Positions 17,887 to 47,530 of a stretch of DNA of 64,000 bases are shown piece after piece (the first letter of the stretch is position 1; each line of letters begins with the position of its first letter). Location: the NCBI GenBank assembly GCA_027003075.1, contig JALWYV010000001.1, positions 24,128-88,127 of the forward strand. The letters are read 5' to 3'. The notes beneath the pieces are model-generated. The model was given only the letters and a program-made list of their open reading frames with translations. It ran no database searches and was not told where the DNA came from. Both the position numbers and the translations under genes were made by a program. This DNA is from a candidate division WOR-3 bacterium. GTDB lineage: Bacteria > Hydrothermota > Hydrothermia > LBFQ01.

Positions 17887-18974
17887 TACTTACGAAGATT
17901 GACCGGTACGTTCTGCGGGAGTACCTGAAGGTTTTCCTCGTCCTCGTCGTCGGTGTTATTGGCATCTTCGTGGTGGTGAACTTCTTTGAGATGATGGACA
18001 AGATAGCCGACCACAAGCCCTCTCCTTTGTCTATCGCCAGATACTACGCGTGGATGGTTCCCTACCTCCTGAGCATACTCATGCCCATAGCCGAACTCCT
18101 CGCCTGCTTCTTCTCCGTGGGTGAGATGAACCGGAGGTTGGAGATACTGGCCCTTAAAGCCTCCGGTGTGGACGTCTGGAGGGTGTTCCTTCCCATACTC
18201 CTGCTCGGCGTTATAAATACCGGCATAGGGATATACCTCAACTGGGAACTCGTCCCCAAAGGCAGGTTGAGGGCGGCGGAGATAAAGGCACGGGAGATTG
18301 AGAAGCGGAAGAACCTGCCCAGCCGTACCTTCGCCCGGAACCTCTCCTTCTTCGGTGAGGGAAACAGGTTGTACTTCTTTACCTACATAAACGCGAAGGA
18401 AAACAGGGCGCAGGGGATATCCATATTCATGTTTGACAGTGCGGGGAAGATCAGGGAGAGGATGGACGCCGTAGTCGCAAAGTACGCGGGTGGAAAGTGG
18501 ACGCTTGAGGGCGTGGTACACAGGGTATTTCAGGGCGAGGACGAGATACTGAGGAGGTACGCAAAGTACACGGACACACTCATGAAGGAGACCCCGGCCC
18601 AGTTCCTTAAACCCCTCGGCGACTCCCTTATGACGACTCCGGAACTTCTCCACAGGATAGACTTCCTGAACAGGGCGGGTCTGGTAAACTACGAGGAGAG
18701 GACGGAACTCGCCATCCGTTTCCTCTTCCCCATAATGAACTTCATCATCCTGCTCATCGGCCTGCCTCTGGCCGTCTTCTCAAGCACCAGAGGGGGCAAC
18801 AGGGCGGTATCCTTCGGTTCTGCACTGTTTCTGGCCTTCTTCTACTGGGGAGCATTGCAGTCTGCCCGCGCCTTCGGGGAGACGGGGAAACTGGATCCGT
18901 GGATAGCCGCTTCCATTCCTAACGTTCTATTCCTGCTTCTGGCCATTCCGCTCATGATGAGAATGCATAGGTAA
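17883..18974 (+). CDS. LptF/LptG-family LPS export permease
   Basis: YjgP/YjgQ-type membrane protein with an 'IDRYVLREYLKVF' N-terminus and a periplasmic beta-jellyroll segment. Confidence 0.8.
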   Translation: MILTKIDRYVLREYLKVFLVLVVGVIGIFVVVNFFEMMDKIADHKPSPLSIARYYAWMVPYLLSILMPIAELLACFFSVGEMNRRLEILALKASGVDVWRVFLPILLLGVINTGIGIYLNWELVPKGRLRAAEIKAREIEKRKNLPSRTFARNLSFFGEGNRLYFFTYINAKENRAQGISIFMFDSAGKIRERMDAVVAKYAGGKWTLEGVVHRVFQGEDEILRRYAKYTDTLMKETPAQFLKPLGDSLMTTPELLHRIDFLNRAGLVNYEERTELAIRFLFPIMNFIILLIGLPLAVFSSTRGGNRAVSFGSALFLAFFYWGALQSARAFGETGKLDPWIAASIPNVLFLLLAIPLMMRMHR

Positions 18975-18982
18975 GTCCGTTC

Positions 18983-19689
18983 GTTTCAATCCCTTGGCTG
19001 CAAACTATACGTGGGCAATAGATCCGTTCTGGTGAAAAGACGGTTTCAATCCCTGTTTCAATCCCTTATAGGTAGGCTGAAAACGCACATACCCGTGGGC
19101 TAAATCGCATTAGTCTGGGGAGTTTCAATCCCTTATAGGTAGGCTGAAAACAGTAAAGATGATGCATGGAAAGTTGTGCAGAAAATGCGGTTTCAATCCC
19201 TTATAGGTAGGCTGAAAACGAGCCTGTTGGGGAGGATGAAGACGACCCCTCTTAACAGTTTCAATCCCTTATAGGTAGGCTGAAAACTACCGTATTAGGG
19301 GCAATTTCCCAGTACTCGCCCTTGTTTCAATCCCTTATAGGTAGGCTGAAAACGCTGAAAACTGGGAGAGGACGGCGGCGACCGTGGATAGTTTCAATCC
19401 CTTATAGGTAGGCTGAAAACGTGAGAGTAGGGCGGGGCCCGGTAGTCGCTTCGGGTAGTTTCAATCCCTTATAGGTAGGCTGAAAACCTATCACCATGCC
19501 GGTGGCCCACTGAAGGAGTCGTAGTTTCAATCCCTTATAGGTAGGCTGAAAACTCCGTTTTGTTCAGGTACGTACTTAAATTTGAACCAAGTTTCAATCC
19601 CTTATAGGTAGGCTGAAAACGAATAAAGGAGAATGGAAAAGTAGTGCACGAGTTTAAACGTTTCAATCCCTTATAGGTAGGCTGAAAAC
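18983..19689 (-). CRISPR. CRISPR array of 10 full 30-nt repeats, one truncated repeat, one degenerate terminal repeat and 9 spacers
   Basis: Perfect 30-nt repeats start at 19055, 19122, 19190, 19258, 19324, 19391, 19458, 19524, 19591 and 19660. Spacers are 36-39 nt and all different. A degenerate copy lies at 18983-19005. I infer minus-strand orientation because the leader-like region is on the right and the minus-strand repeat ends in ATTGAAAC. Confidence 0.9.
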
Positions 19690-20023
19690 CCATCTCTCAT
19701 CCCTCGCCAAATTCTCAATTCTCATGCGATTCTACCGGGTATTATAAGGGCGGGAAAATGAAGGTGGAGGTTCGCAAACCTCCAATCCTGCAGAAATGCC
19801 GGGGGGTTTGCGAAGAGGGTGTGGATGCCCATCACTATTGAGAAAACGACATTTCAATACGTTTGAACGGTCGTTCAAGCACCCCACGTAAGTTAAAATT
19901 TTCCGGAGGTTTGCGAAGTCGCTTTGTGGTACAAAGTAGTCTTCAATGTGAACTTAAGTACTCACAGCAACATAGTGTCCCATGCAGAAGACGATTTTTC
20001 GTATCTACAGCCTCCCTCCAGAC
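19690..20023 (-). promoter_or_regulatory. putative CRISPR leader (non-coding, abuts the perfect-repeat end of the array)
   Basis: 334-nt non-coding stretch next to the last perfect repeat. It holds the palindrome GGAGGTTCGCAAACCTCC and two GGTTTGCGAAG copies. Confidence 0.4.
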
Positions 20024-20755
20024 TCATGGGATTATGTAAGGTACACCTCTCCTGTCTACTTTTACCCTTCCCACTATCACGATTTTCTCCTCACCCGGCA
20101 TGTAGATAGGATGTACATCCGGGGATAGTACCCTTCCCGCAATTAGCATTCCACTGCCGTATATACAGCCCGTAGAGTCATAAACTGTCATGGCGGAACG
20201 GCTGAGATCCTCGGGATGAGGGGTGCTTCTCTTTACCGGACACCCCCATCCTCCAGGGGAAACCACTAACAGAACCCTCTTCCCGGCGTAGTCCTTCGGC
20301 GAGTCCAGGATGTCCCCTACCCTTACCCTGTAAATGGGCTTCCCCGAATACTCAAGACGTACGCTCAAAGATTCCCCTACCAGAACCACCTTTCCTTCAG
20401 GAAGGATCTTGAGGGATAACACTTCCCCCGGTTTTCCCCCTTCACGATTTTCCCTGTGACCGTTGTGGGAGATGTACCACTTTCCCCCTTTGTACCCTAT
20501 CTCAATACGGTCTTTCGCAGGGATTTCAAAAGTCACGTTTTCAACAGTTATCAGGAGTGTAGATTTACCACTACTTTCCACATCAAACGCCACAGATACG
20601 GACTTTAGAGTGTCCGATTTCAGGAGAGGAAGCCTGATCCTGTAAGTTATCCCATCCCCCGGGATCTTTATCCGGGAAGATAAATAGGTTTTGGGAAGTG
20701 AGCCATCGTAGGCACCGATGGGAACGGGAAAAACTATTGTAATAGGCGCAACCAT
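20024..20755 (-). CDS. hypothetical protein (243 aa)
   Basis: ORF with host-like composition. The C-terminal 'GKRVLLVVSPGGWGCP' segment is faintly reminiscent of swivelling beta/beta/alpha (DUF126-like) domains. Unassigned. Confidence 0.4.
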   Translation of the reverse strand: MVAPITIVFPVPIGAYDGSLPKTYLSSRIKIPGDGITYRIRLPLLKSDTLKSVSVAFDVESSGKSTLLITVENVTFEIPAKDRIEIGYKGGKWYISHNGHRENREGGKPGEVLSLKILPEGKVVLVGESLSVRLEYSGKPIYRVRVGDILDSPKDYAGKRVLLVVSPGGWGCPVKRSTPHPEDLSRSAMTVYDSTGCIYGSGMLIAGRVLSPDVHPIYMPGEEKIVIVGRVKVDRRGVPYIIP

Positions 20756-25539: not shown

Positions 25540-25708
25540 ATCCCCTCCTTTGCAACTATTATACGGGAGATTTAGGAAATTTTCACATACCGAGCAAAAT
25601 AATTCAAATTTTTGAGCAGATAAAACGGGTAAGGCTCAATAAAATCCGACCTTACAGGTCAGGATTCACCCTTAAAATACCTTCGCAAACCCAAAAGGAG
25701 GTAGAAAG

Positions 25709-32770: not shown

Positions 32771-34423
32771 TTACGGACAGACTTTACCCTTGCACACTAC
32801 CCCCCGCGTCGGGAAGGTGGACCTTATACTCAGGGAATCAACGGCCGGATTACTGAAGCCGAGGCCTTTCCCCCTCAGGTTTACCTTCAGACTGCCGTCC
32901 ATATCCCAGAATACGCCCACCCCCTGCGCGTTCCCGCTCCCGAGGCAGAGATTTCCGCACGTGTAGGTGTCCTTTCCCCTACCGTCTAAAAGGAGGCCGT
33001 AGGAGAAGTCGTGTCCCACACCCTGAGACGTGGACCTGGTGGCCAGATACACGTCGTCTCCCCCTCTGTCGTAGAGCGCCCCTATCGCGAAGTGGGCAGC
33101 CGCTCCCTGAACGTACCATACTCCGGAGTAGGCGTCGTTGCCACTTCCGTCGTAAAGTACTCCCGTACCGAGCCAGTACCCGGCCCCCTGAGCAAATACC
33201 CCGGCCTCGTACCTGTCGTCCCCCTCCCCGTCAAGGAGCAGCCCCACACCTCCGGCGAGGGATCTCCCGTCAAAGAAGTCCCTCCTCTCGCCGAACCCCA
33301 TACCCTGACCGAGGCTGGAGTTATGGCGGGGATCCTGCGGGGACGGGAAGAGGGTCAGGGAGTCCTCCATCCTGTAGGAGTCGTTCCCTGAGAGGTCGGC
33401 CAGTATTCCAATACCCCTCACCCATCCGAATCCCTGAGCCTTCTGGTAGGCGTAGTAAGTGTCGTTCCCGGAGACGTCTATGAGGAGGCCCCCACCGTTG
33501 TACCCGGCTCCCTGTACGAAGACCTTACCCCTGTACGTGTCTTTTCCGGACAGGTCAAGGAGGACGCCGAAACCGGAGAACCCTGCCCCCTGCCCTTCAC
33601 CCTCGTATACGTCGTCCCCTCCCACGTCCACGAAGGCGGCTACGGAGAAGAGGCCGAACCCGACGGAACCGGTATAGGTGTCGTTCCCTCCGTTATCTAC
33701 TCCTATGGCCACGGACTTATAGGTGTCGTCCCCACCGGCGTCCACGACTATCAGGGCGTCGGGGAAGCTGTCGTTCTCGGGCCCACCGAAGGAGACGTAC
33801 CCCCACGGTGTAGGGACGTTTAGGCTCTTTATTTTGCCTCCCTCCCTTCGGAGGGCTGACCTCAGGGAGTCCAGAAGCAGGCAGGCCACCTGAAAGGCGT
33901 AGGCTTCCTCGTTCAGATTTCTGAGGTTCTTCCTTTCAAATGCCCTCTTTTCCTTAAGGTTCAGGCTGTCCCAGATGTACGCCCGGCTCCTTTCGGAGAC
34001 CTTCCCGTCAAGGGCGATGTAGAGTTTCAGGAGGGCGGTGACTATCCGGTTGACGGAACGGGGTACGTACTCCGGTATTATCTGAAGGGTGTCCCTGTGG
34101 GCTTTCGTGAGTTTCTTCGCCCTGTCAAATACGAACTTTCCGAGGGGGTTATCGCCCGTTATGCTGAGGACCTCCTCCCTGTAAACGTCTCCAACGATGC
34201 CGGCGCGGACGTTGTAGCCGGATAGTTTTGTTATCAGGGCGCAGGCGGGGAATAGTTTTAAGGTATCACCCTGGGCCTTCCACCTACGGGCTATCTTCTC
34301 GGCCGTCGTGTACGTCAGGTTGGGGTCGGACAGGTAGAGGTCGGTTATGGGAAGTGTGGTATGCCTGCCCGCCCAGAAGTTTATGGCGCTCAAAGAGATT
34401 ACGAAGAGGGAGGAGTCTATCAT
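32771..34423 (-). CDS. Gly/Asp-rich repeat protein, paralog A (putative beta-solenoid with 'xDxxGNDxY' repeats)
   Basis: 550 aa. The C-terminal ~330 aa carry about 12 repeats of 'hhD-x2-G-(N/D)-D-x-Y-x7-QG-x-G' (h = hydrophobic). It is paralogous to the gene at 36655-38298. The N-terminal ~220 aa are unrelated to that paralog. Confidence 0.5.
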   Translation of the reverse strand: MIDSSLFVISLSAINFWAGRHTTLPITDLYLSDPNLTYTTAEKIARRWKAQGDTLKLFPACALITKLSGYNVRAGIVGDVYREEVLSITGDNPLGKFVFDRAKKLTKAHRDTLQIIPEYVPRSVNRIVTALLKLYIALDGKVSERSRAYIWDSLNLKEKRAFERKNLRNLNEEAYAFQVACLLLDSLRSALRREGGKIKSLNVPTPWGYVSFGGPENDSFPDALIVVDAGGDDTYKSVAIGVDNGGNDTYTGSVGFGLFSVAAFVDVGGDDVYEGEGQGAGFSGFGVLLDLSGKDTYRGKVFVQGAGYNGGGLLIDVSGNDTYYAYQKAQGFGWVRGIGILADLSGNDSYRMEDSLTLFPSPQDPRHNSSLGQGMGFGERRDFFDGRSLAGGVGLLLDGEGDDRYEAGVFAQGAGYWLGTGVLYDGSGNDAYSGVWYVQGAAAHFAIGALYDRGGDDVYLATRSTSQGVGHDFSYGLLLDGRGKDTYTCGNLCLGSGNAQGVGVFWDMDGSLKVNLRGKGLGFSNPAVDSLSIRSTFPTRGVVCKGKVCP

Positions 34424-34466
34424 ACCCGAATTCTACGGTTGCGGCTGATACGAGGGGGTAAAGGGC

Positions 34467-35963
34467 TTATCTTACAACAACTCTAAACACCTTACCCCCG
34501 ACCTTCACGAAATACACCCCGGCGGGCAAAGAGACCCTGCCCTTGCCTCTGAAAACGAGCCTGCCGCTGACGGAATACACCTCACCGTACTCCGGAACTT
34601 CAATACCACCTCTCACAACCTTGATAGTGGCCTTCCCTGTTTTCCTCACAACCTCCTCAACCTCGGTGATCTCGCTCACTATACCCCTGAAAAACCACGC
34701 GTTCCCCCCACCGGAGAAGATATAACCATCACGAGACCTATCACCACCAGTGTAGTAATACACCGTATCCCTGTACGTTATCAAACTCGCATAATCATTG
34801 CCCGGTTTGTTGTGGCAGGCAGGAAACATATCGGGATGGTAGCCCCAAGCAGATGCTATCCTCCTGTTCCTCCACACACCTCCCTCCATCCATCCGTACA
34901 TCACCATGCTCGTATCGGGAAGGATGTCAGATCTGACTCTCTCAACGAAGAATAGAAGAAGCGTATCTCCGGAGGAGGATAAAACGGGATTTCCTTGAAT
35001 GCTGTCACTTCTGTAAACTGCACTATCTATCCACGTTGTCCCTCCGTCAAAGCTGTAGGAGACGTATACGTTGCACCTCCCTGTGTCGCTGCGGTCGTTC
35101 CCATAGACGTAGGCAACCGCAAGACCGTTTATACCAAAGGCCGATATGCTCTTGAGCCGCTTCGTGAAGCCATTAAACGGAACGTTGCATTGCTTATACA
35201 GAGGTCTCCTGTAGAACCGTGCTGCCACACCCGGTACCTCGTTCCACGTCGTGCCACTGTCCGTGGAGTAGAGGACGTGGATGTAAACGGAGTCTAAATC
35301 AGTTTTCTCCTCAACTACAAGGTAATACACACCATCGTGATAGGCGAAATATGGAATATTGAAAATTGAACGGCGACGACCAACAGATTTCCTGATCACC
35401 CAATCACCCGGCGCACCGTGGTTGTCGTTGGTAAGGATGAAAACGGTGTCCTCCTTCATCCACGCCCCTATCACCCTGCTACTGCTTAAAACTCCCATCA
35501 CCCACGGTTTGTCCCTCCTCCTCGGGCTGTACTCGTGCATGTTGTAACAGTACCAGCTGCCTGACAGATGGGGATCGGAGAACGCCATGCAGAATACTAT
35601 CATGTTTGAATCCCTTCGTGACGTGTCCTTGAGGCTTACCATTCCTATCAGGTAGAATCCGTTCGGATTATCTCCCATTATGCTGACAGAGGGGTCAACT
35701 ATCGCATACCTGCTCGTGTCCATTACCCACCCGTCATCAAATGTGCCTATCAGGTCCTTTACGTGAAGCCAATTTGTACCTCTGGTGGTATCAACGAAGA
35801 TGCTTATCGTCCAGAACTTATTAGGCCAGTTTCTGTTTAGTACTGCTGCCACTAAATAGCCATCGTTAAGTGCGAGGTCTCCTTCAAGGTAACTCTGGTA
35901 GCAGTAGTTGGGTATATCGCTGTTTATACGTGTAGAGAAGAAGGAGACCGCTAACGGCAGCAC
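34467..35963 (-). CDS. BNR/Asp-box repeat (sialidase-like) protein with a T9SS-like C-terminal domain
   Basis: Asp-boxes 'YSTDSGTTW' and 'YSFDGGTTW'. The C-terminus '...LPAGVYFVKVGGKVFRVVVR' is close to the tail of the gene at 11960. Confidence 0.6.
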   Translation of the reverse strand: MLPLAVSFFSTRINSDIPNYCYQSYLEGDLALNDGYLVAAVLNRNWPNKFWTISIFVDTTRGTNWLHVKDLIGTFDDGWVMDTSRYAIVDPSVSIMGDNPNGFYLIGMVSLKDTSRRDSNMIVFCMAFSDPHLSGSWYCYNMHEYSPRRRDKPWVMGVLSSSRVIGAWMKEDTVFILTNDNHGAPGDWVIRKSVGRRRSIFNIPYFAYHDGVYYLVVEEKTDLDSVYIHVLYSTDSGTTWNEVPGVAARFYRRPLYKQCNVPFNGFTKRLKSISAFGINGLAVAYVYGNDRSDTGRCNVYVSYSFDGGTTWIDSAVYRSDSIQGNPVLSSSGDTLLLFFVERVRSDILPDTSMVMYGWMEGGVWRNRRIASAWGYHPDMFPACHNKPGNDYASLITYRDTVYYYTGGDRSRDGYIFSGGGNAWFFRGIVSEITEVEEVVRKTGKATIKVVRGGIEVPEYGEVYSVSGRLVFRGKGRVSLPAGVYFVKVGGKVFRVVVR

Positions 35964-36040
35964 GTTTCACCTCCTACCTCACGAGATATATCGGGCTTAG
36001 TTCTATCTCGTACCCGCAGGTACGCAAAAGTATGGGCCTT

Positions 36041-36631
36041 TTACTTACCCCGGTGTATCGCTTCCACGTTCAGTTCTACCTTCACCTTCCTGCCCACGAC
36101 CAGACCCCCCGTCTCCATCTTCTTGTTCCACCTTATACCGAAGTCGTACCGGTCTATGGTGAAACTGGCCTCAACGCCTATGCGAAGGTTTCCCCACGGA
36201 TCCTTAACGGGTCCGTACCACTTGAAGGGGAAGGATACCGTCTTCGTTATGCCCTTGATCGTGAGGTCGGCGTCCGCCCACCACTCGCCCCCCTTCTTAT
36301 AAATTCTCTTCACCACCATCTTCATCCGGGGGTACTTCTGGACGTCAAAGAAGTCGGAGTCCCTCAGGTGGTCGTCCCTCTTCTTGTTTCGGGTGTCTAT
36401 GCTGGCGACGTCCACCCAGCCTTCGGCCCGGCTCTTGGTTATGTCGGAGGTATCCAGATCTATCCAGCCGTCAAAGTTGTGGAAGGTCCCAACGACGGTC
36501 GTGACCATCATGTGGCGCACCTTGAAGTTTATGGACGTGTGGGCCTTGTCCACCTTAAATCGGATGGCCTCCGCCCTCAGAGAAACAAAGGGAAGTGCCG
36601 TTACTATCAGGACGATCGTTAACCTCAGCAT
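36041..36631 (-). CDS. YceI-family periplasmic polyisoprenoid-binding protein
   Basis: Signal peptide followed by 'FKVDKAHTSINFKVRHMMVTTVVGTFHNFDGWIDLD', the YceI signature. Confidence 0.8.
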   Translation of the reverse strand: MLRLTIVLIVTALPFVSLRAEAIRFKVDKAHTSINFKVRHMMVTTVVGTFHNFDGWIDLDTSDITKSRAEGWVDVASIDTRNKKRDDHLRDSDFFDVQKYPRMKMVVKRIYKKGGEWWADADLTIKGITKTVSFPFKWYGPVKDPWGNLRIGVEASFTIDRYDFGIRWNKKMETGGLVVGRKVKVELNVEAIHRGK

Positions 36632-36654
36632 AGACAGTGATTGTAAAGGGGAAA

Positions 36655-38298
36655 CTACCTATCCCAGCCGAGACCCCACTTCGGCCTTACCCATAGGGAG
36701 GTGTTCCGGGCGTGGGATTTGAAGGGGTAGACGTCCATATCCGTTCCGAGATCAAGGAAGATCCCTATGCCCCCCATCTCTCTCTGTACGTTTGCCCCTC
36801 CGAAGGATATGTCCTCCTCCCTCGCCGAATAGTTGTCCTTTCCGTCTCCGTCCACGAAGATACCCACGGAGTTGGTCAGGCCCACACCGAACCCCCCGCT
36901 GGTGTAGTAAGTGTCGTTCCCGGTTGAGTCGTAGAAGAAGCCTACGGACAGGTCGTGTCCCTCCCCGATGCTGGGGCCGTAGTAGGCGTAGTAGAGGTCG
37001 TCCCCGTCCTTATCTACGAGGCCACCGACGGAGAGGTGAATCCCCGCTCCCTGACAGTACTCGGCACAGGTGTACCTGTCGTCCCCTCCCCCGTCGTAAA
37101 GGGCGCCGAGACCGTACCAGTAGGAGACCCCCTGAGCGTACGTCCCGGCCGAATAGTGGTCGTTTCCGGAGGCGTCGGCCAGTATGCCCACACCGCCACC
37201 GAACCGGTCCCTCCACCCTATGGAGAAGCCCTGACCCATGGCCTGCCTCTGCCTGAGGAATAGGGGTTTGTGGATGGGACCGTAGCCGAGGGTGTAGACG
37301 TCGTTCCCACCGTGGTCGGAGAGGATACCGACGCCGTACGTCCCTGCGAACCCCTGACCGTATATTACGGCCTTGTAGATGTCGTTCCCGCCTCCGTCCA
37401 TGAGGTACCCCCCTCCGAAGGTTCCGGCACCGAGGGAGTGGAAACCGCCGGAGTAGTAATCGTCCCCCTCCCGATCGTAGAGGAGTCCGAAACCTCCCAG
37501 ACCTACACCGCCACACGTCCCCTTACAGACGTAGACGTCGTTTCCTGCGTAATCGTAGAGGACGGATATTCCCAGAATACCGGCTGCGAACTCCCCGGAG
37601 TACCTGTCTTCCCCGGAGAGGTCCACTATCAGGACGGGCGCCCTCGTGAGGAGGTAGTCGTCGTCCCCGCCGAAGTCGTATATGGCCACATACTCCCCCC
37701 GGTACGTGTTGTTCCCCTTACCCCCTATCGCCACCTTCCCGAAGCCCGTGACGTACTCGTACTGGAAGTCCCCCTCCATCCGGGGAACCGACGAGGTATC
37801 AAAGTTAAGAACGCAAACGAGAGCGTTCAACAGGAGGTTGTAATCCACCGAATCCGAAAGTGTGCGCACCTGTGCGTGGGTAAGGGAGTCCCCCTCCGGT
37901 GAGTCGGGATCCCACGTGGCGATCAATCTGGCCCTCAGGGTATCCCTCTCCCTTTCCTTGAGCTTTACGAAGGCCCTGTTGGTAAAGTAGTCCACGCAGT
38001 GAAGTGTTTCAACTATGCCCCTTATTACCGTATCCTTCACCGTAAATCGGGTCCTCATCCGTACGGGCTTGAACCTGACAGGCCAGAAGGTGGAAGGGAT
38101 ATTTCTGGGGTTAAGGGAAGCGTAGGACGGAAGGGAATCCACGGACCACTTCACGAAACTCAGGGGATCCGATAGAAAGCGGAGAACGGGCCGGGGTTTC
38201 AGTACAGTCCGCGTGGAGAGGTCCTTGTCAAACGTGAGATCCTTCCGGGTCAACCCCCCGTAAAACAGAAGGGAATCAATAAAGGACATAAACCACAT
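36655..38298 (-). CDS. Gly/Asp-rich repeat protein, paralog B
   Basis: 547 aa with about 12 'hhD-x2-G-(N/D)-D-x-Y' repeats, for example 'LYDYAGNDVYV', 'LMDGGGNDIYKA' and 'LADASGNDHYSA'. Confidence 0.5.
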   Translation of the reverse strand: MWFMSFIDSLLFYGGLTRKDLTFDKDLSTRTVLKPRPVLRFLSDPLSFVKWSVDSLPSYASLNPRNIPSTFWPVRFKPVRMRTRFTVKDTVIRGIVETLHCVDYFTNRAFVKLKERERDTLRARLIATWDPDSPEGDSLTHAQVRTLSDSVDYNLLLNALVCVLNFDTSSVPRMEGDFQYEYVTGFGKVAIGGKGNNTYRGEYVAIYDFGGDDDYLLTRAPVLIVDLSGEDRYSGEFAAGILGISVLYDYAGNDVYVCKGTCGGVGLGGFGLLYDREGDDYYSGGFHSLGAGTFGGGYLMDGGGNDIYKAVIYGQGFAGTYGVGILSDHGGNDVYTLGYGPIHKPLFLRQRQAMGQGFSIGWRDRFGGGVGILADASGNDHYSAGTYAQGVSYWYGLGALYDGGGDDRYTCAEYCQGAGIHLSVGGLVDKDGDDLYYAYYGPSIGEGHDLSVGFFYDSTGNDTYYTSGGFGVGLTNSVGIFVDGDGKDNYSAREEDISFGGANVQREMGGIGIFLDLGTDMDVYPFKSHARNTSLWVRPKWGLGWDR

Positions 38299-38324
38299 TT
38301 ATTCCCCTATTCTAAGGTGGCGTA

Positions 38325-39137
38325 CTACATGCGGAAGCTCACGCTTCCGAGGAAGGAGTACCCGAAGTCCAGATGGTAGGACGTACCGAAGGAGAACTTC
38401 CCTCTGCCGTGGTTGTAGGAGAGTCCGAGCCGTCCCTTCCCTTCAACGAGACCCGCATAAACGTCCATCCTCCAGAAAGAAGCCCTTAAAGATAAGAAAC
38501 CGTCCCGCAGAGGTGAGAACCCGCGCCCGTCCGGTGAGTACTCCCCGCCAAATAAGAGGTACGTGGACCCGTAAACCTTAACCCTTGCCCGGAGGTCCAC
38601 GAGAGGAAGGGCGAACTCCCGCCTGCCGGTACTCCATACGACCGGAGACGTGGCCGCGTTTTTAATGCCGGCGTACAGGTCAAGGAGACTGAGAGGCGAG
38701 TAAAGGAACGCAACGTCTATCCCACCCCCCACACCGCTGCCGTACTTCCCCGCCCCCGCGTAGATAAACTTAACGGCTGCCGCAACCTTCAACGTCTTAC
38801 CGAAGGGTTTAAACGCACCGACCCTCCCCTCGTACGCCCCGAACCTCACCCGATCCACCACCTCCGGTACGTTGTCCTCAGAGGGGGGAGCAGTCGTGTC
38901 CGGAAGGGTGGTTATAAGGATCTCTCCCGAACGGTAGACCTTCAGATGGAAGGAGAAGGGTAAGTACCCTACGCTTATCCCTCCGTAAACGTCCCCCGGT
39001 ACCGTACCCGTGGCCAGACCGACCCCTACCCCTCTTTCCGGGGACAGAACGTTGAACGGGGACTGATAGAACACCTCACTCCTTGAAACGTACTCCTCAA
39101 CGTTGTAGGCGAAGTTCAGGAACTCAAGGGCGAACAT
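38325..39137 (-). CDS. putative outer-membrane beta-barrel protein (270 aa)
   Basis: Alternating hydrophobic, Gly- and Tyr-rich beta strands with an aromatic C-terminus. It could be a PorP/SprF-like or PorQ-like T9SS accessory protein, but that is not established. Confidence 0.4.
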   Translation of the reverse strand: MFALEFLNFAYNVEEYVSRSEVFYQSPFNVLSPERGVGVGLATGTVPGDVYGGISVGYLPFSFHLKVYRSGEILITTLPDTTAPPSEDNVPEVVDRVRFGAYEGRVGAFKPFGKTLKVAAAVKFIYAGAGKYGSGVGGGIDVAFLYSPLSLLDLYAGIKNAATSPVVWSTGRREFALPLVDLRARVKVYGSTYLLFGGEYSPDGRGFSPLRDGFLSLRASFWRMDVYAGLVEGKGRLGLSYNHGRGKFSFGTSYHLDFGYSFLGSVSFRM

Positions 39138-39150
39138 ATTCCCCGTTATT

Positions 39151-39726
39151 CTAAGGCAGAGAAGATGCGATCTTCTCCTTAATCCTCTTTAGATCCAGCT
39201 TCTCTCCGTCCCCTCTGTAAACTATCCTTCCGTCCGGGGTTACGACGTGGACGTAGTCCGTATGGGTCAGGAAGTAGACCGTGTCCCCGTTGGGAGCTAT
39301 CTCCGTCTTTCCCTTTACGGCTATCACACCCACGTCCTTTATGAACCTGCGGACCTCCTCCGGATCTCCGGTAAGGAAGATCCAGCCCGACGAGCCTATA
39401 CCGTACATACTCGCATACTTCCGCAGTACCTCAGGCCTATCCCTCTCCGGATCTATGCTCACGGACAGGAAGAGGACCTTTTCCCTCACGCTGTCGGGGA
39501 GGCTGGAGTGGAGTTTTTTGAGGTTGGCCATCGTAAGGGGACAGGCGTCCGGGCAGTGGGTATAGAAGTAACTCACGACGAGGGTACGTCCACTCAGGGA
39601 GTCAAGGGCAACCGTATCCCCCCACCGGTTGATGAAGGTATAACCCTTTCCGTACGGGAACCTCTCCGCTCCCCTCTGGCATGCGAGAAGCAGTAAGGAA
39701 AAGAACAACCACCGCCTTAACGCCAT
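39151..39726 (-). CDS. SCO1/SenC-family copper chaperone (thioredoxin fold), lipoprotein
   Basis: 'YFYTHCPDACP' is the CxxxC motif. Lipobox 'LLLLAC'. Confidence 0.8.
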   Translation of the reverse strand: MALRRWLFFSLLLLACQRGAERFPYGKGYTFINRWGDTVALDSLSGRTLVVSYFYTHCPDACPLTMANLKKLHSSLPDSVREKVLFLSVSIDPERDRPEVLRKYASMYGIGSSGWIFLTGDPEEVRRFIKDVGVIAVKGKTEIAPNGDTVYFLTHTDYVHVVTPDGRIVYRGDGEKLDLKRIKEKIASSLP

Positions 39727-39752
39727 CTATCCATCAAATCTAAGGCCGTACC

Positions 39753-40845
39753 TTAACCTTTCCCTTCCCCTTTATGGAAAAGGTAAGCCTTTATGAAATC
39801 GTCCAGTTCGCCGTCAAGAACGGCCTCGGCGTTGGAGGTCTCGTACCCGGTACGGTGATCCTTGACCAGCTTGTAGGGGTAGAGGACGTAGGACCTTATC
39901 TGGTGTCCCCACTCTATGGAGGACTTGGGTCCGGCCAGCTCCTGAAGTTTCTCCTCCTGCTTCTTCCGGTAGTACTCGTACAGGCGGGCCTTTAAAACCC
40001 GCATGGCGTTCTCCCTGTTCTGGTGCTGGGACCTCTCGCTCCTCATTACGACGGTTATTCCCGTAGGTATGTGGGTTATGCGGACGGCCGATTCCGTCTT
40101 GTTCACGTGCTGGCCACCGGCACCGCTGGATCTGAAGGTCTCAATCTTCAACTCGTCCGGCTTTATCTCTACCTCAACGTCCTTCATCTCCGGGAGTACG
40201 CCCACGGCTGCGAAGGAGGTATGTCGGCGGTTGCTGGCGTCAAACGGGGAAATGCGTACCAGACGATGTACCCCCTTCTCTCCCTTCAGGTATCCGTAGG
40301 CGTAGGGTCCCTGAATCATCAGGGTCGCAGACTTTATCCCCGCCTCCTCACCCCTCTGGTAGTCAAGGACGCTCACCCTGTACCCCCTCCTCTCGGCCCA
40401 TCGCACGTACATACGCATAAGCATCTCCGCCCAATCCTGACTCTCCGTCCCCCCTGCTCCGGGGTGGATCTCAAGGATAGCGTTCTGGTAATCCTCCTCG
40501 TTCTGAAAGAGCAGCTTTATCTGGAAATCCTCTATGGCCCTTTTCAGGTCCTCGTACTCCCTGCTCACCTCTTCGGCCACCTCCGGATCCTCCTCGGCCA
40601 GTTCGTAGACCTCCTTCAGGTAGTCTAACCTCTCCCCTATCTCCCTGAAGGTCTTCAGTCTCTCCTTCAGGACGGAAAGCTCCTGCATCACCCTGCTCGC
40701 CCTCTTCTGATCCGACCAGAAGTCCGGTTTCAGGGACTCCTCTTCCAGCTCCTTTATCCGGCTGACGAGGACATCCTCGTCAAAGATACCCCCTTATTTT
40801 CTCGTACTCCCTGACGAGATCCTCTATGTGCGACAGCAGAACCAT
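39753..40845 (-). CDS. prfB: peptide chain release factor 2, made by a programmed +1 ribosomal frameshift
   Basis: Frame-0 ORF of 21 codons (MVLLSHIEDLVREYEKIRGYL) ends in the canonical shift cassette AGGGGG-TAT-CTT-TGA-C at about 40779-40794. The +1 frame continues into the 343-codon ORF containing 'SGAGGQHVNKTESAVRITHIPTG'. Confidence 0.85.
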
Positions 40846-40885
40846 AGGTGGCAATTTTAAAGGGGAAGATTCCTGCCCGGTTCCG

Positions 40886-41689
40886 CTACTCCCCGTGGGG
40901 ATGGCCGAAGTACTTGCTCAGGAGGTCGTAGATTTTCCGGGGGTCGTGCTTCGGTACGGGATAGGTTACGGTTGTGGTCGTATCACGGTTCCATGATACG
41001 GTGTCGGAGACTGTGGCTACTGCGAAGTACTGTCCCTTCGCCCCCTTCACGTTGTCACCCTCGCCACTCCACGGTGCTGACACGAACGAGAGGAGAAAAT
41101 AGGCGTGGGTGTGCTCTATAGGAACGGGATAGGGGGAACACGCCCTGGGTACGTACACCTTAACCGTGTTCATCTCAAGGTCGGAGATGAGGGTGTCGTA
41201 CTCACCGGACTCAAAGTTCCATCCGGTATCTCTGCAGGTAATGCTGACATGGAACAGTACGAAGTCCACCTTCTCCGGATCGGGCGATTCCCACGATACG
41301 ACCATATGCTGGGAATCTATGCTCACGAGAGTGAGTTTCGGGACGGGAGGTACCTCGTTTATGGCCGAAGCCTCTCTGTCACTTCCGTTCAGATCTTTGA
41401 ACTGCAGGTTCAATTCTACCTCCTGCCCTGACGATATGGGTGGAACGGAGTCCCACACGAAGTATCCGTCCATCCACGCGCTGTATATATCTACGGGATA
41501 CCCGTTTATGCTCACCTGAGGCGTGTCGTACGGGGATATACCGAACATCCAGACGACGTGTTCCGTTGAAGTATCGTACCTGCCCGCACGGTATTCGCTA
41601 ACCGCCCGAATGAGGATCGTCGGTACATCCTTCCTGCATCCCCATCCTGCGATCACGAAGAGAACCGTGAGGATAACTATCCGCCTCAT
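40886..41689 (-). CDS. hypothetical lipoprotein
   Basis: Signal peptide 'MRRIVILTVLFVIAGWGC'. I place the start at the internal ATG at 41689. Confidence 0.45.
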   Translation of the reverse strand: MRRIVILTVLFVIAGWGCRKDVPTILIRAVSEYRAGRYDTSTEHVVWMFGISPYDTPQVSINGYPVDIYSAWMDGYFVWDSVPPISSGQEVELNLQFKDLNGSDREASAINEVPPVPKLTLVSIDSQHMVVSWESPDPEKVDFVLFHVSITCRDTGWNFESGEYDTLISDLEMNTVKVYVPRACSPYPVPIEHTHAYFLLSFVSAPWSGEGDNVKGAKGQYFAVATVSDTVSWNRDTTTTVTYPVPKHDPRKIYDLLSKYFGHPHGE

Positions 41690-41821
41690 GGTACATAATT
41701 TTAGCGCGGGTTTTAATACATTTCGGCAAAACAACCGCATATCAATTTCGTATGAATAGGATGCGTGGCAAACAACCACCTCCTTCCGGGGTCACTTTTT
41801 ACGCAACCACGAAGTGGGATA

Positions 41822-42563: not shown

Positions 42564-42908
42564 TTATAAGGAAGTTCGCGGCTTTTTTCGTGGCAGGTCA
42601 GAAGTATCTATACCGTACTTGCTCAGGTAGGCCCTTACGAGAAGTTTGAAGAACTTCGTATGTTTCCCGTCCATCAGCTTAAGATGAACCAGCTCGTGTA
42701 CTATCACCTCGTGGCGGAATCGGGCGGGTTGTTTGAGCAGCTCGCTGTTTAAGGTGAGCCTCCCCCTCGTTGAGACGCTCGCCCACTTGCGTTTCATCGG
42801 CCTTACGTGTATCTCCCTCAGCCTGTCCTCAACCCCTATTCTCCTCGCCCATGTCCAGACCTCGGCGATGAGAACATCCCGCATTACGTCATCCCTCATA
42901 TCTCTCAT
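42564..42908 (-). CDS. YgjP-like (DUF45/M48-family) zinc metallopeptidase, short form
   Basis: 'HEVIVHELVHL' is the HExxH motif. It overlaps the hsdR 3' end by 20 nt, a known hsdR-associated position. Confidence 0.65.
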   Translation of the reverse strand: MRDMRDDVMRDVLIAEVWTWARRIGVEDRLREIHVRPMKRKWASVSTRGRLTLNSELLKQPARFRHEVIVHELVHLKLMDGKHTKFFKLLVRAYLSKYGIDTSDLPRKKPRTSL

Positions 42909-45804
42909 CCTCTATCCTCCTAAGTAATCTGAGTATGTCGTTCGTCCACGGCACGACGTCCTTTATTCCGGCCCCAAGGAGGATTTTGTAAATCCTCTTC
43001 CTAAGTCTCCCCTCCTGTGTGGAGCTCCTGCCCCAATAAGGGAACTCCTTCAGGGCTTCGTCTATACCGGTGGCCAGTTTTTCGGAGGTTTCTGGATCCA
43101 TTTCCTTCTGCACGCGCATCCACCACTTTACGGCGAAGGCCTTGCCGGAGAGATGGGTTTCCTTCATCTGTCTCCGGGCCTCCTTTATTTCCCTTACGAG
43201 CCTTTCCAGTTCCTTCAGGGCCTGCCTGCTGTTTATCTGTCTCTCCTCAAAGGCTTTCCTTATCCTCTCCGCCCTCTCTCCTATGGGAATGAGGTAGGGT
43301 TCTTCCCTCCCTTCCTGTGCCACCAGCCGGGCTATGGTGTTCAGGAGGTTGAACATCCTTACGGTTTCGGGTGTGTGTCTTGCCGCAAGGAGGGTCTCAA
43401 GCGTTTCGGGGGTTATCTCGTAGGTTTCGTTCAAAAAGTTAAGCTTTGACGTGTGGGTGTTCCTCTGTACTATCTCAGCCGTTTTCCTGAGGAAGGATTT
43501 ACTGACGTCAACCTTCGGATCGTAGGCGTTTCTGAGTACCCTGTACATCTCCGCCAGTTTCCTGTAGTCCTCTATGAAAGGGCGCAGGAAAGGGTCCGGG
43601 GATATTACCTCGTAGAGTTCCTGAAGTTCGCGGAAGAACCTGTAAAACTCCTCCCTCTTATCCCTGTCCCGAAACCTCTCCAACAGGGCATCGGCCATCC
43701 TGTCGGCGCTCCCCACGTTGAGAAAACTCAGGTATTCCGTTTTTCCGGCCCGTATCAGCTCCGCGAAGCGCTCCTTCAGGACGTCAATCCCCTCCACGAC
43801 CCCCTTTATGTCCTCGGAGTCAAAGGTCAGCGCCCTCTCAAGGTTGTCAAATATGCCGACGAAGTCTATTATCAGGCCGTTGGTCTTCTTGCGGCCGCTT
43901 TCGTCCTCGTAAGGGCGGTTCACTCTGGCGATGGCCTGAAGGAGGACGTGGTCCCGCATGGGTTTGTCAAGGTACATGGCGTAGAGGATAGGGGCGTCGT
44001 AGCCGGTCAGGAGTTTTTCCGTGACGATGAGGATCTTAGGGTTTTCGTCGGGTTTCCTGAAGGCCTTCCTTATGCGGGTCTCCTCCTCGTCGTTCAGGTG
44101 GTAGCGCTTCAGATGGGGAGGGTCGTTGTGGCCCCGGCTTATCACGACCTCGCTGTATTCAGGGGGCAGGTACCTGTCCAGAGCCTCCTTGTAGAGGACA
44201 CACGCCTCCCTATCCACGGCCACAAGGAAGGCCTTGTACCCCATAGGTTCAACGTTGTTTTTGAAGTGATCGGCGACGAAACGGGCGATCTTATCCACCC
44301 TCTCGCTGTTCTTCAGCATGTTTTTGAGCCTGACAGCCCTATCCAATACCCGGTTTATCTCCTCAATGTCGGCCACCCCCTCAAGGGCAGCGGCCTCCCA
44401 GAACTCCTTTTCCATGGTCACCCTGTCAACTACGAGGTCGTTCGGTGCCATCTGGTAGTAGAGGGGAACGGTCGTCCCGTCCTCTATGGACTCCTTTATG
44501 GAGTACTTGTCAAGGTAACCCCTCGGAGGGTCGTCTGCTCCGAAGACCTTGAAGGTACCCTTCCCCTTGCTCGTCTTGTCTATCGGCGTGCCGGTGAATC
44601 CTATAAACGTGGCGTTGGGGAGCGCCCCCATAAGGTAGTTTCCGAGGTCCCCGCCCGTTGATCTGTGGGCCTCGTCTATCAGGACGATTATGTTGGAGCG
44701 GGTGTTTAGATTGGCGTCCGCTTTATCAAACTTATGGATCATGGAAACTATCAGGCCGCGGGTGTCACTCTTGAGGAGTTCCCGCAGGTGTCTTTTGCTC
44801 TTCGCAACGTGAAGGTTGCCGAAGCCCACGGCCTCAAGGTTCTGGAAGAGCTGTTGCTGGAGTTCGTTCCTGTCCACTATCATGAGGACGGTGGGGTTCT
44901 CAAATCTCGGGTCCTCCAGTATCAACCTCGCAATTGTTATCATGGTGTAGGTCTTACCGGAACCCTGCGTGTGCCATACGAGGCCGCGCCGTTTTATGGG
45001 GTCTCTTGCCCTGCCTATAACCTTCCTCACAGCCCGCATCTGGTGGGGTCTCAGAACGACTTTGGAGAGTTCCCCGTCTCTGCGTACGAACAGGATATAA
45101 TCTCTCAGGACCTTCAGGACCCTCTGCGGAGATATAAAGGTTTTTACGAGGGTCTCAAAGTCCCCGGCCTGCTCATCTTTGTAATTGAACAGCGCCTTTC
45201 TGGATAGGTTCCACGTGGGTCCGTAGAAGAACCGGACCCGGTTCGTCAGGGCATATATCTGGCTCTGAACCATGAGTTCGGGGCCCTCTTCGTGGTACCT
45301 GCGTATCTGGTCGTGGGCCTCCGGTATCCCCTCCATCTTCGTGGGTGATTTGGCCTCAAGGATTATTACGGGTATGCCGTTGATGAGGAAGACGACGTCA
45401 GGCCGTATTACGGCCGCACCACTGACAAAACGGAACTCCTCCGTAACGTGGAACGTGTTGTTGCGTGGATTTTTGAAGTCAACGAGACGGACGTTCTTCT
45501 CCCTTTTCTCCACCTCAACGAAAACGGTTTTAAGGCCCTTCAGGTACTCCCACGCCTCGTAATTCCCCTCTATGTTGAGCTTCACCCTTACGAGCCTGTC
45601 TATTACCTCTTCGGCCTTTGTCCTGTTCGTTATGGTAGTGGGGTTGAGTCTCTGAAGCTGCTCTATCAGGATGCTCCGCAGTACGGGGCTGCTCTCCCCT
45701 CCCCTCAGTCTCAGGGCCTCGTCCGGAGGAAGGTACTCCCAACCCACCTCTTGAGCGTGCTGTATTATCGGGTTCTGAACGGTGTGGCGTTCGGAGAACA
45801 TCAC
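42889..45804 (-). CDS. hsdR: type I restriction enzyme R subunit
   Basis: 971 aa with an N-terminal nuclease domain and SF2 helicase motifs ('WHTQGSGKTYTM', 'IVDRNELQQQ', 'DEAHRS'). Host-like GC content. Confidence 0.9.
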   Translation of the reverse strand: MMFSERHTVQNPIIQHAQEVGWEYLPPDEALRLRGGESSPVLRSILIEQLQRLNPTTITNRTKAEEVIDRLVRVKLNIEGNYEAWEYLKGLKTVFVEVEKREKNVRLVDFKNPRNNTFHVTEEFRFVSGAAVIRPDVVFLINGIPVIILEAKSPTKMEGIPEAHDQIRRYHEEGPELMVQSQIYALTNRVRFFYGPTWNLSRKALFNYKDEQAGDFETLVKTFISPQRVLKVLRDYILFVRRDGELSKVVLRPHQMRAVRKVIGRARDPIKRRGLVWHTQGSGKTYTMITIARLILEDPRFENPTVLMIVDRNELQQQLFQNLEAVGFGNLHVAKSKRHLRELLKSDTRGLIVSMIHKFDKADANLNTRSNIIVLIDEAHRSTGGDLGNYLMGALPNATFIGFTGTPIDKTSKGKGTFKVFGADDPPRGYLDKYSIKESIEDGTTVPLYYQMAPNDLVVDRVTMEKEFWEAAALEGVADIEEINRVLDRAVRLKNMLKNSERVDKIARFVADHFKNNVEPMGYKAFLVAVDREACVLYKEALDRYLPPEYSEVVISRGHNDPPHLKRYHLNDEEETRIRKAFRKPDENPKILIVTEKLLTGYDAPILYAMYLDKPMRDHVLLQAIARVNRPYEDESGRKKTNGLIIDFVGIFDNLERALTFDSEDIKGVVEGIDVLKERFAELIRAGKTEYLSFLNVGSADRMADALLERFRDRDKREEFYRFFRELQELYEVISPDPFLRPFIEDYRKLAEMYRVLRNAYDPKVDVSKSFLRKTAEIVQRNTHTSKLNFLNETYEITPETLETLLAARHTPETVRMFNLLNTIARLVAQEGREEPYLIPIGERAERIRKAFEERQINSRQALKELERLVREIKEARRQMKETHLSGKAFAVKWWMRVQKEMDPETSEKLATGIDEALKEFPYWGRSSTQEGRLRKRIYKILLGAGIKDVVPWTNDILRLLRRIEDERYEG

Positions 45805-46725: not shown

Positions 46726-46748
46726 TTTTTGCCTCCTTTAGGTAGATA

Positions 46749-47528: not shown

Positions 47529-47530
47529 GT

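What the first reader, a model, noticed from the sequence alone, without database searches (positions are those of the whole stretch)
18983..19689. Orphan CRISPR array with internal scars: a degenerate terminal repeat, a 12-nt truncated repeat fused to a full repeat, and a 9-nt repeat-end duplication
There are ten perfect 30-nt repeats. No cas gene lies within about 19 kb upstream or the rest of the window downstream. The flanks are an lptF/G-family gene on the left and a hypothetical gene on the right.

At the left end, a 23-nt degenerate repeat (18983-19005) has lost 'ATAGGTA'. It is followed by a spacer, then 'GTTTCAATCCCT' (19043-19054) joined directly to a full repeat, the signature of an internal deletion of a repeat-spacer unit. 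After the repeat at 19324, the spacer begins with a second copy of 'GCTGAAAAC'.

Read on the minus strand, the repeat ends in ATTGAAAC, the common 8-nt crRNA 5' tag of Cas6-processed type I-B/III repeats. Together with the right-side leader and left-side degenerate repeat, this orients the array on the minus strand.
Basis: seen in the sequence. Interest (0 to 1): 0.6.

Follow-up and report, generated by a model that had tools for sequence, protein, structure and literature searches.

The report
Isolated type I-B-family CRISPR array
This is a genuine but ordinary CRISPR array in an uncultured WOR-3 bacterium, far from any cas gene and read on the minus strand, with three small real sequence scars that add little beyond known CRISPR biology.

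Summary
There are ten perfect 30-nt repeats (19055-19689), a 23-nt degenerate repeat (18983-19005), a 12-nt partial repeat fused to a full repeat (19043-19054), and a spacer that starts with a second GCTGAAAAC (19354-19362).

The repeat matches Rfam CRISPR-DR2. In 17 of 17 related metagenomic loci that carry cas1, type I-B cas genes lie on the GCT..AAAC side and are transcribed toward the array. About 300 nt to the right of the array is a leader shared with three other cas-less arrays in WOR-3 MAGs, including an invariant TATAAT. Degenerate repeats sit at the opposite end. Minus-strand orientation is therefore well supported.

No cas gene was found in the window, in 8.3 kb to its left or in 3.9 kb to its right. 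This shows the array is isolated. It does not show it is orphan, because the rest of the genome could not be searched.

The scars also occur in two other assemblies. They are rare in this repeat family: 2 comparable events in 1858 spacers. The 12-nt scar fits a tandem duplication as well as a deletion. The 9-nt scar keeps the spacer at the normal 37 nt, which fits capture of a spacer from a CRISPR array. No spacer target was found. Interest is low.

The parts
18983..19005 (-). Degenerate terminal (trailer-end) repeat, 23 nt. It is the repeat lacking ATAGGTA (crRNA-sense positions 11-17) and carrying one substitution at 19001. It begins 8 nt after the lptF/G stop codon.
   Evidence: The same sequence is in L001 and L002. 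Degenerate repeats lie at this same end in at least 12 related arrays.
19006..19042 (-). Oldest spacer (Sp10), 37 nt.
   Evidence: Matches only L001 and L002, which are the same genome.
19043..19054 (-). 12-nt partial repeat: GTTTCAATCCCT on the plus strand, AGGGATTGAAAC in crRNA sense (repeat positions 19-30). It is fused directly to full repeat R10.
   Evidence: Present in the Logan contig L002.
19055..19689 (-). Core array: ten identical 30-nt repeats and nine spacers of 36-39 nt. In crRNA sense the repeat is GTTTTCAGCCTACCTATAAGGGATTGAAAC. R1, next to the leader, is 19660-19689; R10 is 19055-19084.
19354..19390 (-). Spacer Sp5, 37 nt. Its plus-strand start (19354-19362) repeats the last 9 nt of the repeat, GCTGAAAAC. 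In crRNA sense the spacer ends in GTTTTCAGC, immediately before repeat R6.
   Evidence: The length is normal with the 9 nt included; the family range is 32-43 nt.
19690..19990 (-). Leader, about 300 nt, GC 0.47. It is conserved next to three other arrays in two WOR-3 MAGs that have unrelated flanking genes.
   Evidence: blastn: 86% identity over 259 nt to L005, 77% over 296 nt to L004, 81% over 63 nt to L003. Alignment A1. Flanking genes are not shared. GC.
19741..19746 (-). TATAAT on the minus strand, invariant in all four leaders, about 52 nt upstream of the first repeat. Putative -10 box of the array promoter.
   Evidence: CCTTATAAT is invariant. Promoter function is inferred. The sigma-70 scan did not call it because the -35 region is poor.
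19771..19780 (+). Leader motif TTCGCAAACC, inverted copy. In this window it lies inside the imperfect palindrome TGGAGGTTCGCAAACCTCCA.
   Evidence: 4 copies in the window against 0.08 expected. The motif half is conserved in all four leaders, but the hairpin partner is not.
19805..19814 (-). Leader motif TTCGCAAACC, direct copy 2.
   Evidence: (family D4).
19908..19917 (-). Leader motif TTCGCAAACC, direct copy 1.
   Evidence: (family D4).

Best explanation
This is a CRISPR array of the widespread 30-nt repeat family Rfam CRISPR-DR2, whose repeats end in ATTGAAAC in crRNA sense. In other organisms this family sits directly downstream of type I-B (Csh/Hmari-type) cas operons. Here it lies in the chromosome of a candidate-division WOR-3 bacterium, between lptF/G and a hypothetical gene, with no cas gene nearby.

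Inferred mechanism:
1. Transcription starts in the conserved leader to the right of the array, near the invariant TATAAT at 19746-19741, and runs leftward on the minus strand.
2. A Cas6b-type endoribonuclease encoded elsewhere cuts each repeat 8 nt before its 3' end. This gives crRNAs with an ATTGAAAC 5' handle.
3. New spacers are added at the leader end (19689) by Cas1-Cas2(-Cas4) acting in trans. The oldest unit and the decayed repeat therefore lie at 18983-19054.

The three scars are by-products of array maintenance:
- The terminal repeat has decayed, as is usual at the trailer end.
- The 12 extra nucleotides are a tandem duplication of repeat positions 19-30, or equivalently the remnant of a deleted unit. 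The crRNA for Sp10 would then carry a 20-nt 5' extension and would probably be non-functional.
- Sp5 is most simply a normal-length prespacer captured across a spacer-repeat boundary of a CRISPR array.

Shown: the array, the scars, the shared leader, the cas side and strand in relatives, and the absence of cas in the window.
Inferred: promoter use, Cas6 processing, supply of Cas proteins in trans, and the origin of each scar.

The confidence of 0.7 is for this whole reading, including service in trans now or until recently. That the feature is a minus-strand CRISPR array of the type I-B repeat family is close to certain.
For: - Array and Rfam match.
- Organism: an exact-repeat scan of GTDB genomes hit only WOR-3 MAGs. 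The window equals ENA contig JOHN19-1 scaffold_134 apart from 2 SNPs.
- Type I-B link: locus L100 encodes cas8b/Csh1, cas7/Csh2, cas5b, cas3, cas4 and cas1b (NCBIfam E from 1e-95 down to 5e-143 for the signature genes) next to a repeat that differs by 1 nt.
- Orientation, line 1: in 17 of 17 related loci with cas1, the gene lies on the GCT..AAAC side and on the strand opposite to the GTTTCAAT reading. The same holds for cas3 (11 of 11) and cas4 (9 of 9).
- Orientation, line 2: the same side of the window array carries a leader conserved at three other arrays in different genomic contexts, with an invariant TATAAT.
- Orientation, line 3: degenerate or truncated repeats lie at the opposite end in at least 12 related arrays and in L004 and L005.
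- Orientation, line 4: repeats oriented independently by PAM position commonly end in ATTGAAAC, which forms the crRNA 5' handle (PMC8482600).
- Signs of activity: ten identical repeats, and no spacer shared with the sister arrays L003-L005.
- Precedent: P. furiosus has seven arrays dispersed from its cas loci and all of them acquire spacers. CRISPR arrays are themselves protospacer hotspots there (PMC5737086).
- Sp5 is 37 nt with the repeat fragment included. L067 has an analogous 36-nt spacer with an 11-nt repeat fragment.
Against: - No cas locus was found for this organism, so activity in trans is unproven. The four WOR-3 arrays seen (window, L003, L004, L005) all lack adjacent cas genes.
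- No spacer matched any phage, plasmid or IMG/VR contig, so no PAM-based check of orientation was possible.
- Rfam reports its hits on the plus strand. To my knowledge the CRISPR-DR families were built without regard to transcription strand, so this counts for little.
- lptF/G (plus strand) ends 8 nt before the array with no terminator. Antisense read-through into the array is therefore possible.
- Two scars in only ten spacers, against 2 in 1858 elsewhere, could mean relaxed selection on a decaying array.
- The source array for Sp5 was not found.
Confidence: 0.7

Rival explanations
1. True orphan relic. The genome has lost its type I-B cas genes, and the array persists as a non-functional remnant that is accumulating scars.
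For: No cas genes lie near any of the four WOR-3 arrays that share this leader. Scar density is unusually high: 2 internal scars in 10 spacers against 2 in 1858. No spacer target was found.
Against: Ten repeats are 100% identical, and the roughly 300-nt leader with its TATAAT is conserved across species. That argues for purifying selection or recent activity. The sister arrays share no spacers, which implies independent acquisition. MAGs are incomplete, so absence of cas cannot be inferred from them.
Confidence: 0.25
2. The array is transcribed from the plus strand, with the leader on the lptF/G side, as the Rfam hit strand would suggest.
For: Rfam CRISPR-DR2 hits are reported on the plus strand. 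lptF/G transcription runs into the array with no terminator between them.
Against: There is no room for a leader on the left, because the lptF/G stop codon is 8 nt from the first repeat. The degenerate repeat is at that end. The conserved flank is on the other side. In 17 of 17 relatives cas1 lies on the right-hand side. The plus-strand repeat ends in GAAAAC, not in the ATTGAAAC handle.
Confidence: 0.04
3. The 12-nt partial repeat is the remnant of an internal deletion that removed one spacer and the first 18 nt (crRNA sense) of the next repeat. It concerns only the origin of this one scar and is compatible with the best explanation.
For: The sequence is compatible with it. Loss of repeat-spacer units is common in arrays (general knowledge).
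Against: Ordinary repeat-to-repeat recombination regenerates a full repeat and leaves no scar. This deletion would need one end exactly at a repeat-spacer boundary and no homology. An exact 12-nt tandem duplication gives the same sequence in one step. L081 shows an unambiguous 23-nt tandem duplication across a junction in the same repeat family.
Confidence: 0.4
4. The scars are assembly or sequencing artefacts in a repetitive region.
For: CRISPR arrays are often misassembled in metagenomes. Contig L002 breaks inside the array.
Against: The window, ENA contig L001 and Logan contig L002 agree base for base over the left-end scars, and L001 agrees over the whole array. The Logan contig comes from a different assembler.
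Confidence: 0.03

Closest known systems
Type I-B (Csh/Hmari-type) CRISPR arrays with 30-nt repeats ending in ATTGAAAC, for example metagenomic loci L100 and L060 (cas8b-cas7-cas5-cas3-cas4-cas1-array)
   Same: Repeat length is the same and 29 of 30 nt are identical. Spacer lengths are 36-39 nt. The repeat polarity relative to the leader and cas side matches, and the degenerate repeat is at the trailer end.
   Different: There is no cas operon next to the window array. Its leader is unrelated to those of the cas-adjacent loci retrieved. One repeat position differs (G instead of A at crRNA-sense position 6).
Dispersed multi-array genomes such as Pyrococcus furiosus: seven arrays far from the cas loci, all transcribed and all acquiring spacers (PMC5737086)
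   Same: Several arrays per lineage share a repeat and a conserved leader and sit in unrelated chromosomal contexts without adjacent cas genes. In P. furiosus, CRISPR arrays are protospacer hotspots, which offers a route to repeat-containing spacers such as Sp5.
   Different: In P. furiosus the cas loci are known and activity was measured. Here neither is known.
Orphan CRISPR loci such as Enterococcus faecalis CRISPR2 (PMC4580645), and the isolated CRISPRs surveyed in PMC5294841
   Same: There is no cas gene within 10 kb, which is the definition of 'isolated' in PMC5294841.
   Different: Orphan status requires that the whole genome lacks a companion cas locus, and this was not testable here. 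Orphans typically show no spacer turnover, whereas the WOR-3 sister arrays share no spacers.
Cas6b-processed repeats of Clostridium thermocellum and Methanococcus maripaludis type I-B systems
   Same: 30-nt, weakly structured repeat with an 8-nt ATTGAAAC 5' tag. The minus-strand repeat folds only weakly (-6.2 kcal/mol, z = -1.5).
   Different: No Cas6 gene and no processing data exist for this organism.

Membership tests
CRISPR array | Regularly spaced, near-identical direct repeats of 23-47 nt separated by unique spacers of similar length | tested here: met
   Ten identical 30-nt repeats and spacers of 36-39 nt, all different.
CRISPR array | Repeat matches a curated CRISPR repeat family | tested here: met
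   Rfam RF01315 CRISPR-DR2: 47.9 bits against a gathering score of 37, for all ten repeats.
CRISPR array | A leader on one side, conserved among arrays of the lineage, and a degenerate repeat at the other end | tested here: met
   The leader at 19690-19990 is conserved with L003, L004 and L005. The degenerate repeat is at 18983-19005.
CRISPR array | Spacers match mobile genetic elements | tested here: inconclusive
   No hits in 50,697 phage records or 72,556 plasmid records. Four 24-25-nt spacer cores gave no hit in IMG/VR. Few viruses of WOR-3 bacteria are likely to be in these collections.
Type I-B CRISPR-Cas system | Adjacent cas8b-cas7-cas5-cas3-cas4-cas1-cas2 operon (with cas6) | tested here: not met
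   No Cas family hit (Pfam, NCBIfam, PADLOC) anywhere in the window, nor in 8.3 kb to the left or 3.9 kb to the right of it.
Type I-B CRISPR-Cas system | The repeat family co-occurs with type I-B cas genes elsewhere | tested here: met
   18 related loci (repeats sharing the first 24 nt) carry cas homologues of L100, and 17 of them carry cas1. L100 was typed as I-B by NCBIfam.
Type I-B CRISPR-Cas system | A cas locus of this subtype somewhere in the same genome | not testable with these tools
Type I-B CRISPR-Cas system | crRNAs processed by Cas6b to an 8-nt 5' handle | not testable with these tools
   Only the ATTGAAAC repeat end is seen (sequence; PMC8482600). There are no RNA data.
Orphan CRISPR (no cas in the genome) | No companion cas locus anywhere in the genome | not testable with these tools
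   Only 'isolated' was shown: more than 10 kb from any cas gene, the criterion of PMC5294841.
Orphan CRISPR (no cas in the genome) | No spacer turnover among related strains | tested here: inconclusive
   L001 and L002 are the same strain. Sister arrays at other loci share no spacers. Orthologous lptF/G loci in relatives have no array at all.

The most novel reading that the evidence does not exclude
The internal scars may be natural footprints of imprecise type I-B adaptation rather than random slippage. On this reading, Sp5 here and the L067 spacer are prespacers captured across repeat-spacer boundaries of a CRISPR array. The re-iterated repeat 3' segments would then mark aberrant Cas1-Cas2 nicking or disintegration at the mid-repeat docking motif: they start at crRNA-sense position 19 here, 20 in L067 and 17 in L081. 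If so, surveys of such scars could map integrase fidelity in uncultured lineages.
Probability: 0.12. Interest if true: 0.35.

Novelty: new member of a known kind. Interest (0 to 1): 0.15.

Why it matters
It matters little beyond annotation. It shows that a WOR-3 lineage carries dispersed arrays of the type I-B family with a lineage-specific conserved leader. It gives ten spacers that could link this uncultured bacterium to its viruses once matching viral contigs exist. It also provides a small natural example of a repeat-containing spacer and a partial-repeat duplication. The correct strand call matters for any later spacer-to-protospacer or PAM analysis.

Tried and rejected
- **Cas operon in the low-GC block (42.5-50.5 kb).** I suspected one from the ORF sizes. 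Pfam shows a type I restriction-modification / OLD nuclease / TIR defence island instead.
- **Hypothetical genes.** Those at 32.8-41.8 kb, plus the 243-aa and 700-aa ORFs, were scanned with Pfam, NCBIfam and PADLOC. No Cas or defence hits.
- **Spacer targets.** No self-match in the window and no shared spacer in 120 related loci. Nothing in phages or plasmids except repeat-to-repeat hits to Geobacillus and Aneurinibacillus plasmid arrays. Four spacer cores and the exact repeat gave nothing in IMG/VR.
- **Source array for Sp5.** The 28-nt non-repeat part was not found in any locus or viral contig.
- **243-aa ORF as an array-associated gene.** Rejected: there is no homologue next to the other arrays that share the leader.
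- **Leader palindrome at 19765-19784 as a conserved hairpin or terminator.** Rejected: only the motif half is conserved in L004 and L005.
- **One fixed breakpoint for partial repeats.** This looked possible (12 nt here and apparently in L081). It weakened once L081's own repeat was used: the fragment there is 14 nt and the event is a plain 23-nt tandem duplication.
- **Array at the same locus in relatives.** LptF/G orthologues at 77-88% identity have different downstream genes and no repeats.
- **Look-ups that failed.** Two window proteins were not on record, probably because their start codons differ.
- **Literature.** A search for WOR-3 together with type I-B CRISPR found nothing.

Full report
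**1. Observation**

The region contains ten exact copies of GTTTCAATCCCTTATAGGTAGGCTGAAAAC. They start at 19055, 19122, 19190, 19258, 19324, 19391, 19458, 19524, 19591 and 19660, and shuffled sequence gives none. The spacers between them are 36-39 nt and all different. Each repeat scores 47.9 bits against Rfam CRISPR-DR2, whose gathering score is 37.

- 18983-19005 is the repeat without ATAGGTA.
- 19043-19054 is GTTTCAATCCCT, fused to the full repeat at 19055.
- The spacer at 19354-19390 begins with GCTGAAAAC, the last 9 nt of the repeat.

An ENA metagenome contig (L001) is identical across the array. It differs from the window at only two positions in 21 kb. A Logan contig (L002) built with a different assembler has the same left-end scars. 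The features are therefore real.

**2. Organism and surroundings**

A scan of GTDB species representatives for the exact repeat hit only three places, all in candidate-division WOR-3 MAGs.

The window is ordinary chromosome: cytochrome oxidase, dnaX, an lpxC-fabZ fusion, lptF/G, IF2, nusA, gyrB and others.

No ORF matched a Cas family in Pfam, NCBIfam or PADLOC. This covers the window, 8.3 kb to its left (scaffold_134) and 3.9 kb to its right (scaffold_1995). By the 10-kb criterion of PMC5294841 the array is 'isolated'. Whether it is 'orphan', meaning no cas genes anywhere in the genome, could not be tested.

**3. Which system the repeat belongs to**

The family shares those 24 nt and varies at plus-strand positions 25-28.

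Locus L100 has a repeat that differs by one base. It encodes cas8b/Csh1, cas7/Csh2, cas5b, cas3, cas4 and cas1b by NCBIfam, so it is type I-B.

tblastn with these proteins found cas1 in 17 loci:
- In all 17, cas1 lies on the GCT..AAAC side of the array and on the strand opposite to the GTTTCAAT reading.
- The same holds for cas3 (11 of 11) and cas4 (9 of 9).

In this family, then, the cas operon runs into the array and the repeat reads GTT...ATTGAAAC in that direction.

**4. Orientation in the window**

- **Cas side in relatives.** See section 3.
- **Shared leader.** The roughly 300 nt to the right of the array (19690-19990) are conserved next to the arrays L003, L004 and L005. These come from two other WOR-3 MAGs and have unrelated flanking genes. 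The conserved stretch includes an invariant TATAAT (window 19746-19741, minus strand) about 52 nt before the first repeat. It also includes three copies of TTCGCAAACC.
- **Degenerate repeats.** They lie at the opposite end here, in L004 and L005, and in at least 12 other family arrays.
- **Repeat end.** The minus-strand repeat ends in ATTGAAAC. This is the 3'-end motif found in many type I and III repeats oriented independently by PAM position, and it forms the crRNA 5' handle (PMC8482600).

On the left there is no room for a leader, because the lptF/G stop codon is 8 nt from the terminal repeat.

Rfam reports its hits on the plus strand. I give this little weight because, to my knowledge, those families were not built with regard to transcription strand. 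Antisense read-through from lptF/G is possible, since no terminator separates the gene from the array.

**5. The scars**

Across 90 related arrays with 1858 spacers, lengths range from 32 to 43 nt apart from a few long outliers. Only two internal events resemble the window's:
- **L067:** a 36-nt spacer whose last 11 nt (plus strand) are the start of the repeat.
- **L081:** an exact 23-nt tandem duplication covering 9 nt of spacer and the first 14 nt of that locus's repeat.

The window's ten-spacer array therefore has an unusual density of scars.

The scars fall into two classes.

*Scars that add length.* These are the window's 12 nt and L081's 23 nt.
- For the window, a 12-nt tandem duplication of repeat positions 19-30 (crRNA sense) and a deletion of one spacer plus 18 nt of repeat give the same sequence.
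- L081 shows that junction-spanning tandem duplication does happen in this family.
I put the deletion at about 0.4.

*Scars that keep the spacer at normal length.* These are the window's Sp5 (37 nt) and the L067 spacer (36 nt).
- A deletion or a duplication would imply original spacers of 28 or 25 nt. No spacer in the family is that short.
- A length-measured process fits better: capture of a prespacer across a repeat-spacer boundary.
- CRISPR arrays are documented protospacer hotspots in P. furiosus and E. coli (PMC5737086).
- This remains an inference, because the source of Sp5 was not found.

*Expected consequences (inferred).*
- The Sp10 crRNA would carry ATTGAAAC plus 12 extra nt as its 5' end and would probably be non-functional.
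- Sp5 could only match a CRISPR-like target.

**6. Active or relic?**

For activity:
- All ten repeats are identical.
- The leader is conserved across species.
- The sister arrays share no spacers.

For decay:
- Scar density is high.
- None of the four WOR-3 arrays has adjacent cas genes. This includes a whole 19.5-kb contig, L134.
- No spacer target was found in phages, plasmids or IMG/VR.

LptF/G orthologues at 77-88% identity have different downstream genes and no repeats. The array therefore sits at a synteny break and is specific to this lineage at this site.

I put 'isolated array served in trans, or active until recently' at about 0.7 and 'true orphan relic' at about 0.25.

**7. Comparison and verdict**

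The array works like, and by its repeat belongs with, type I-B arrays. Membership of a complete type I-B system fails on the adjacency criterion and is untestable at genome level.

The closest analogy is the dispersed multi-array layout of P. furiosus, where all seven arrays remote from the cas loci are active (PMC5737086).

Nothing here falls outside known CRISPR biology. It is a new member of a known kind, and interest is low. 'Orphan' should be softened to 'isolated', and the deletion reading of the 12-nt scar is only one of two equal options.

Noticed in passing
window 42564-50793 (minus strand): A defence island with a low-GC core (GC 0.40 at 46-50 kb, against about 0.55 elsewhere). It contains a YgjP-like peptidase, HsdR (971 aa), an 8xMP membrane protein, a ThsB-like TIR protein, a 259-aa protein of unknown function, HsdS, an 89-aa ORF and an OLD-family AAA_15/TOPRIM nuclease. 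Only a 93-aa HsdM N-terminal fragment is present. No full methylase subunit was seen, so the type I restriction-modification system looks disrupted or rearranged by inserted defence genes.
   Followed up: partly
window 47860-48179 (hsdS): 18 of the 19 differences between the window and ENA contig L129 cluster in about 320 nt of the hsdS specificity gene. This suggests strain-level variation in the target-recognition domain.
   Followed up: no
window 25682-25691 (+): A fourth copy of the leader motif TTCGCAAACC lies between a TAAAAT box and the ribosome-binding site of the AhpC/peroxiredoxin gene (ATG at 25709). The window holds 4 copies against 0.08 expected, so the motif may be the site of a general DNA-binding factor rather than something specific to CRISPR.
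   Followed up: partly
window 19798 and 19816: The only two differences between the window and ENA contig L001 over 21 kb both lie in the CRISPR leader, on either side of the motif copy at 19805-19814 (G/C and A/T).
   Followed up: no
window 32771-41779 (minus strand): A run of sizeable genes (550, 498, 547, 270 and 297 aa) has no hit, or only faint hits, in Pfam, NCBIfam or PADLOC. They are interspersed with YceI, SCO1 and a release factor.
   Followed up: partly
window 18967-18973: The heptamer ATAGGTA that is missing from the terminal degenerate repeat occurs 10 nt upstream of that repeat, overlapping the lptF/G stop codon (ATAGG-TAA). This is probably coincidence, because the surrounding 30 nt do not resemble a repeat (10 of 30 matches).
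   Followed up: partly
L004/L134 1994-2076: The sister WOR-3 array has an 83-nt interval between two repeats with no recognisable repeat fragment. It also mixes two repeat variants (GCTGAAAAC and GCTTCAAAC). The arrays of this lineage that share the leader may be generally prone to scars.
   Followed up: no
window 20063-20084 and 20129-20150: A 22-nt direct repeat spaced 66 nt apart lies just beyond the leader and looks CRISPR-like. It falls inside the 243-aa ORF and corresponds to a repeated peptide motif (..IAGRV.. / ..IVGRV..), so it is not a relic array.
   Followed up: yes
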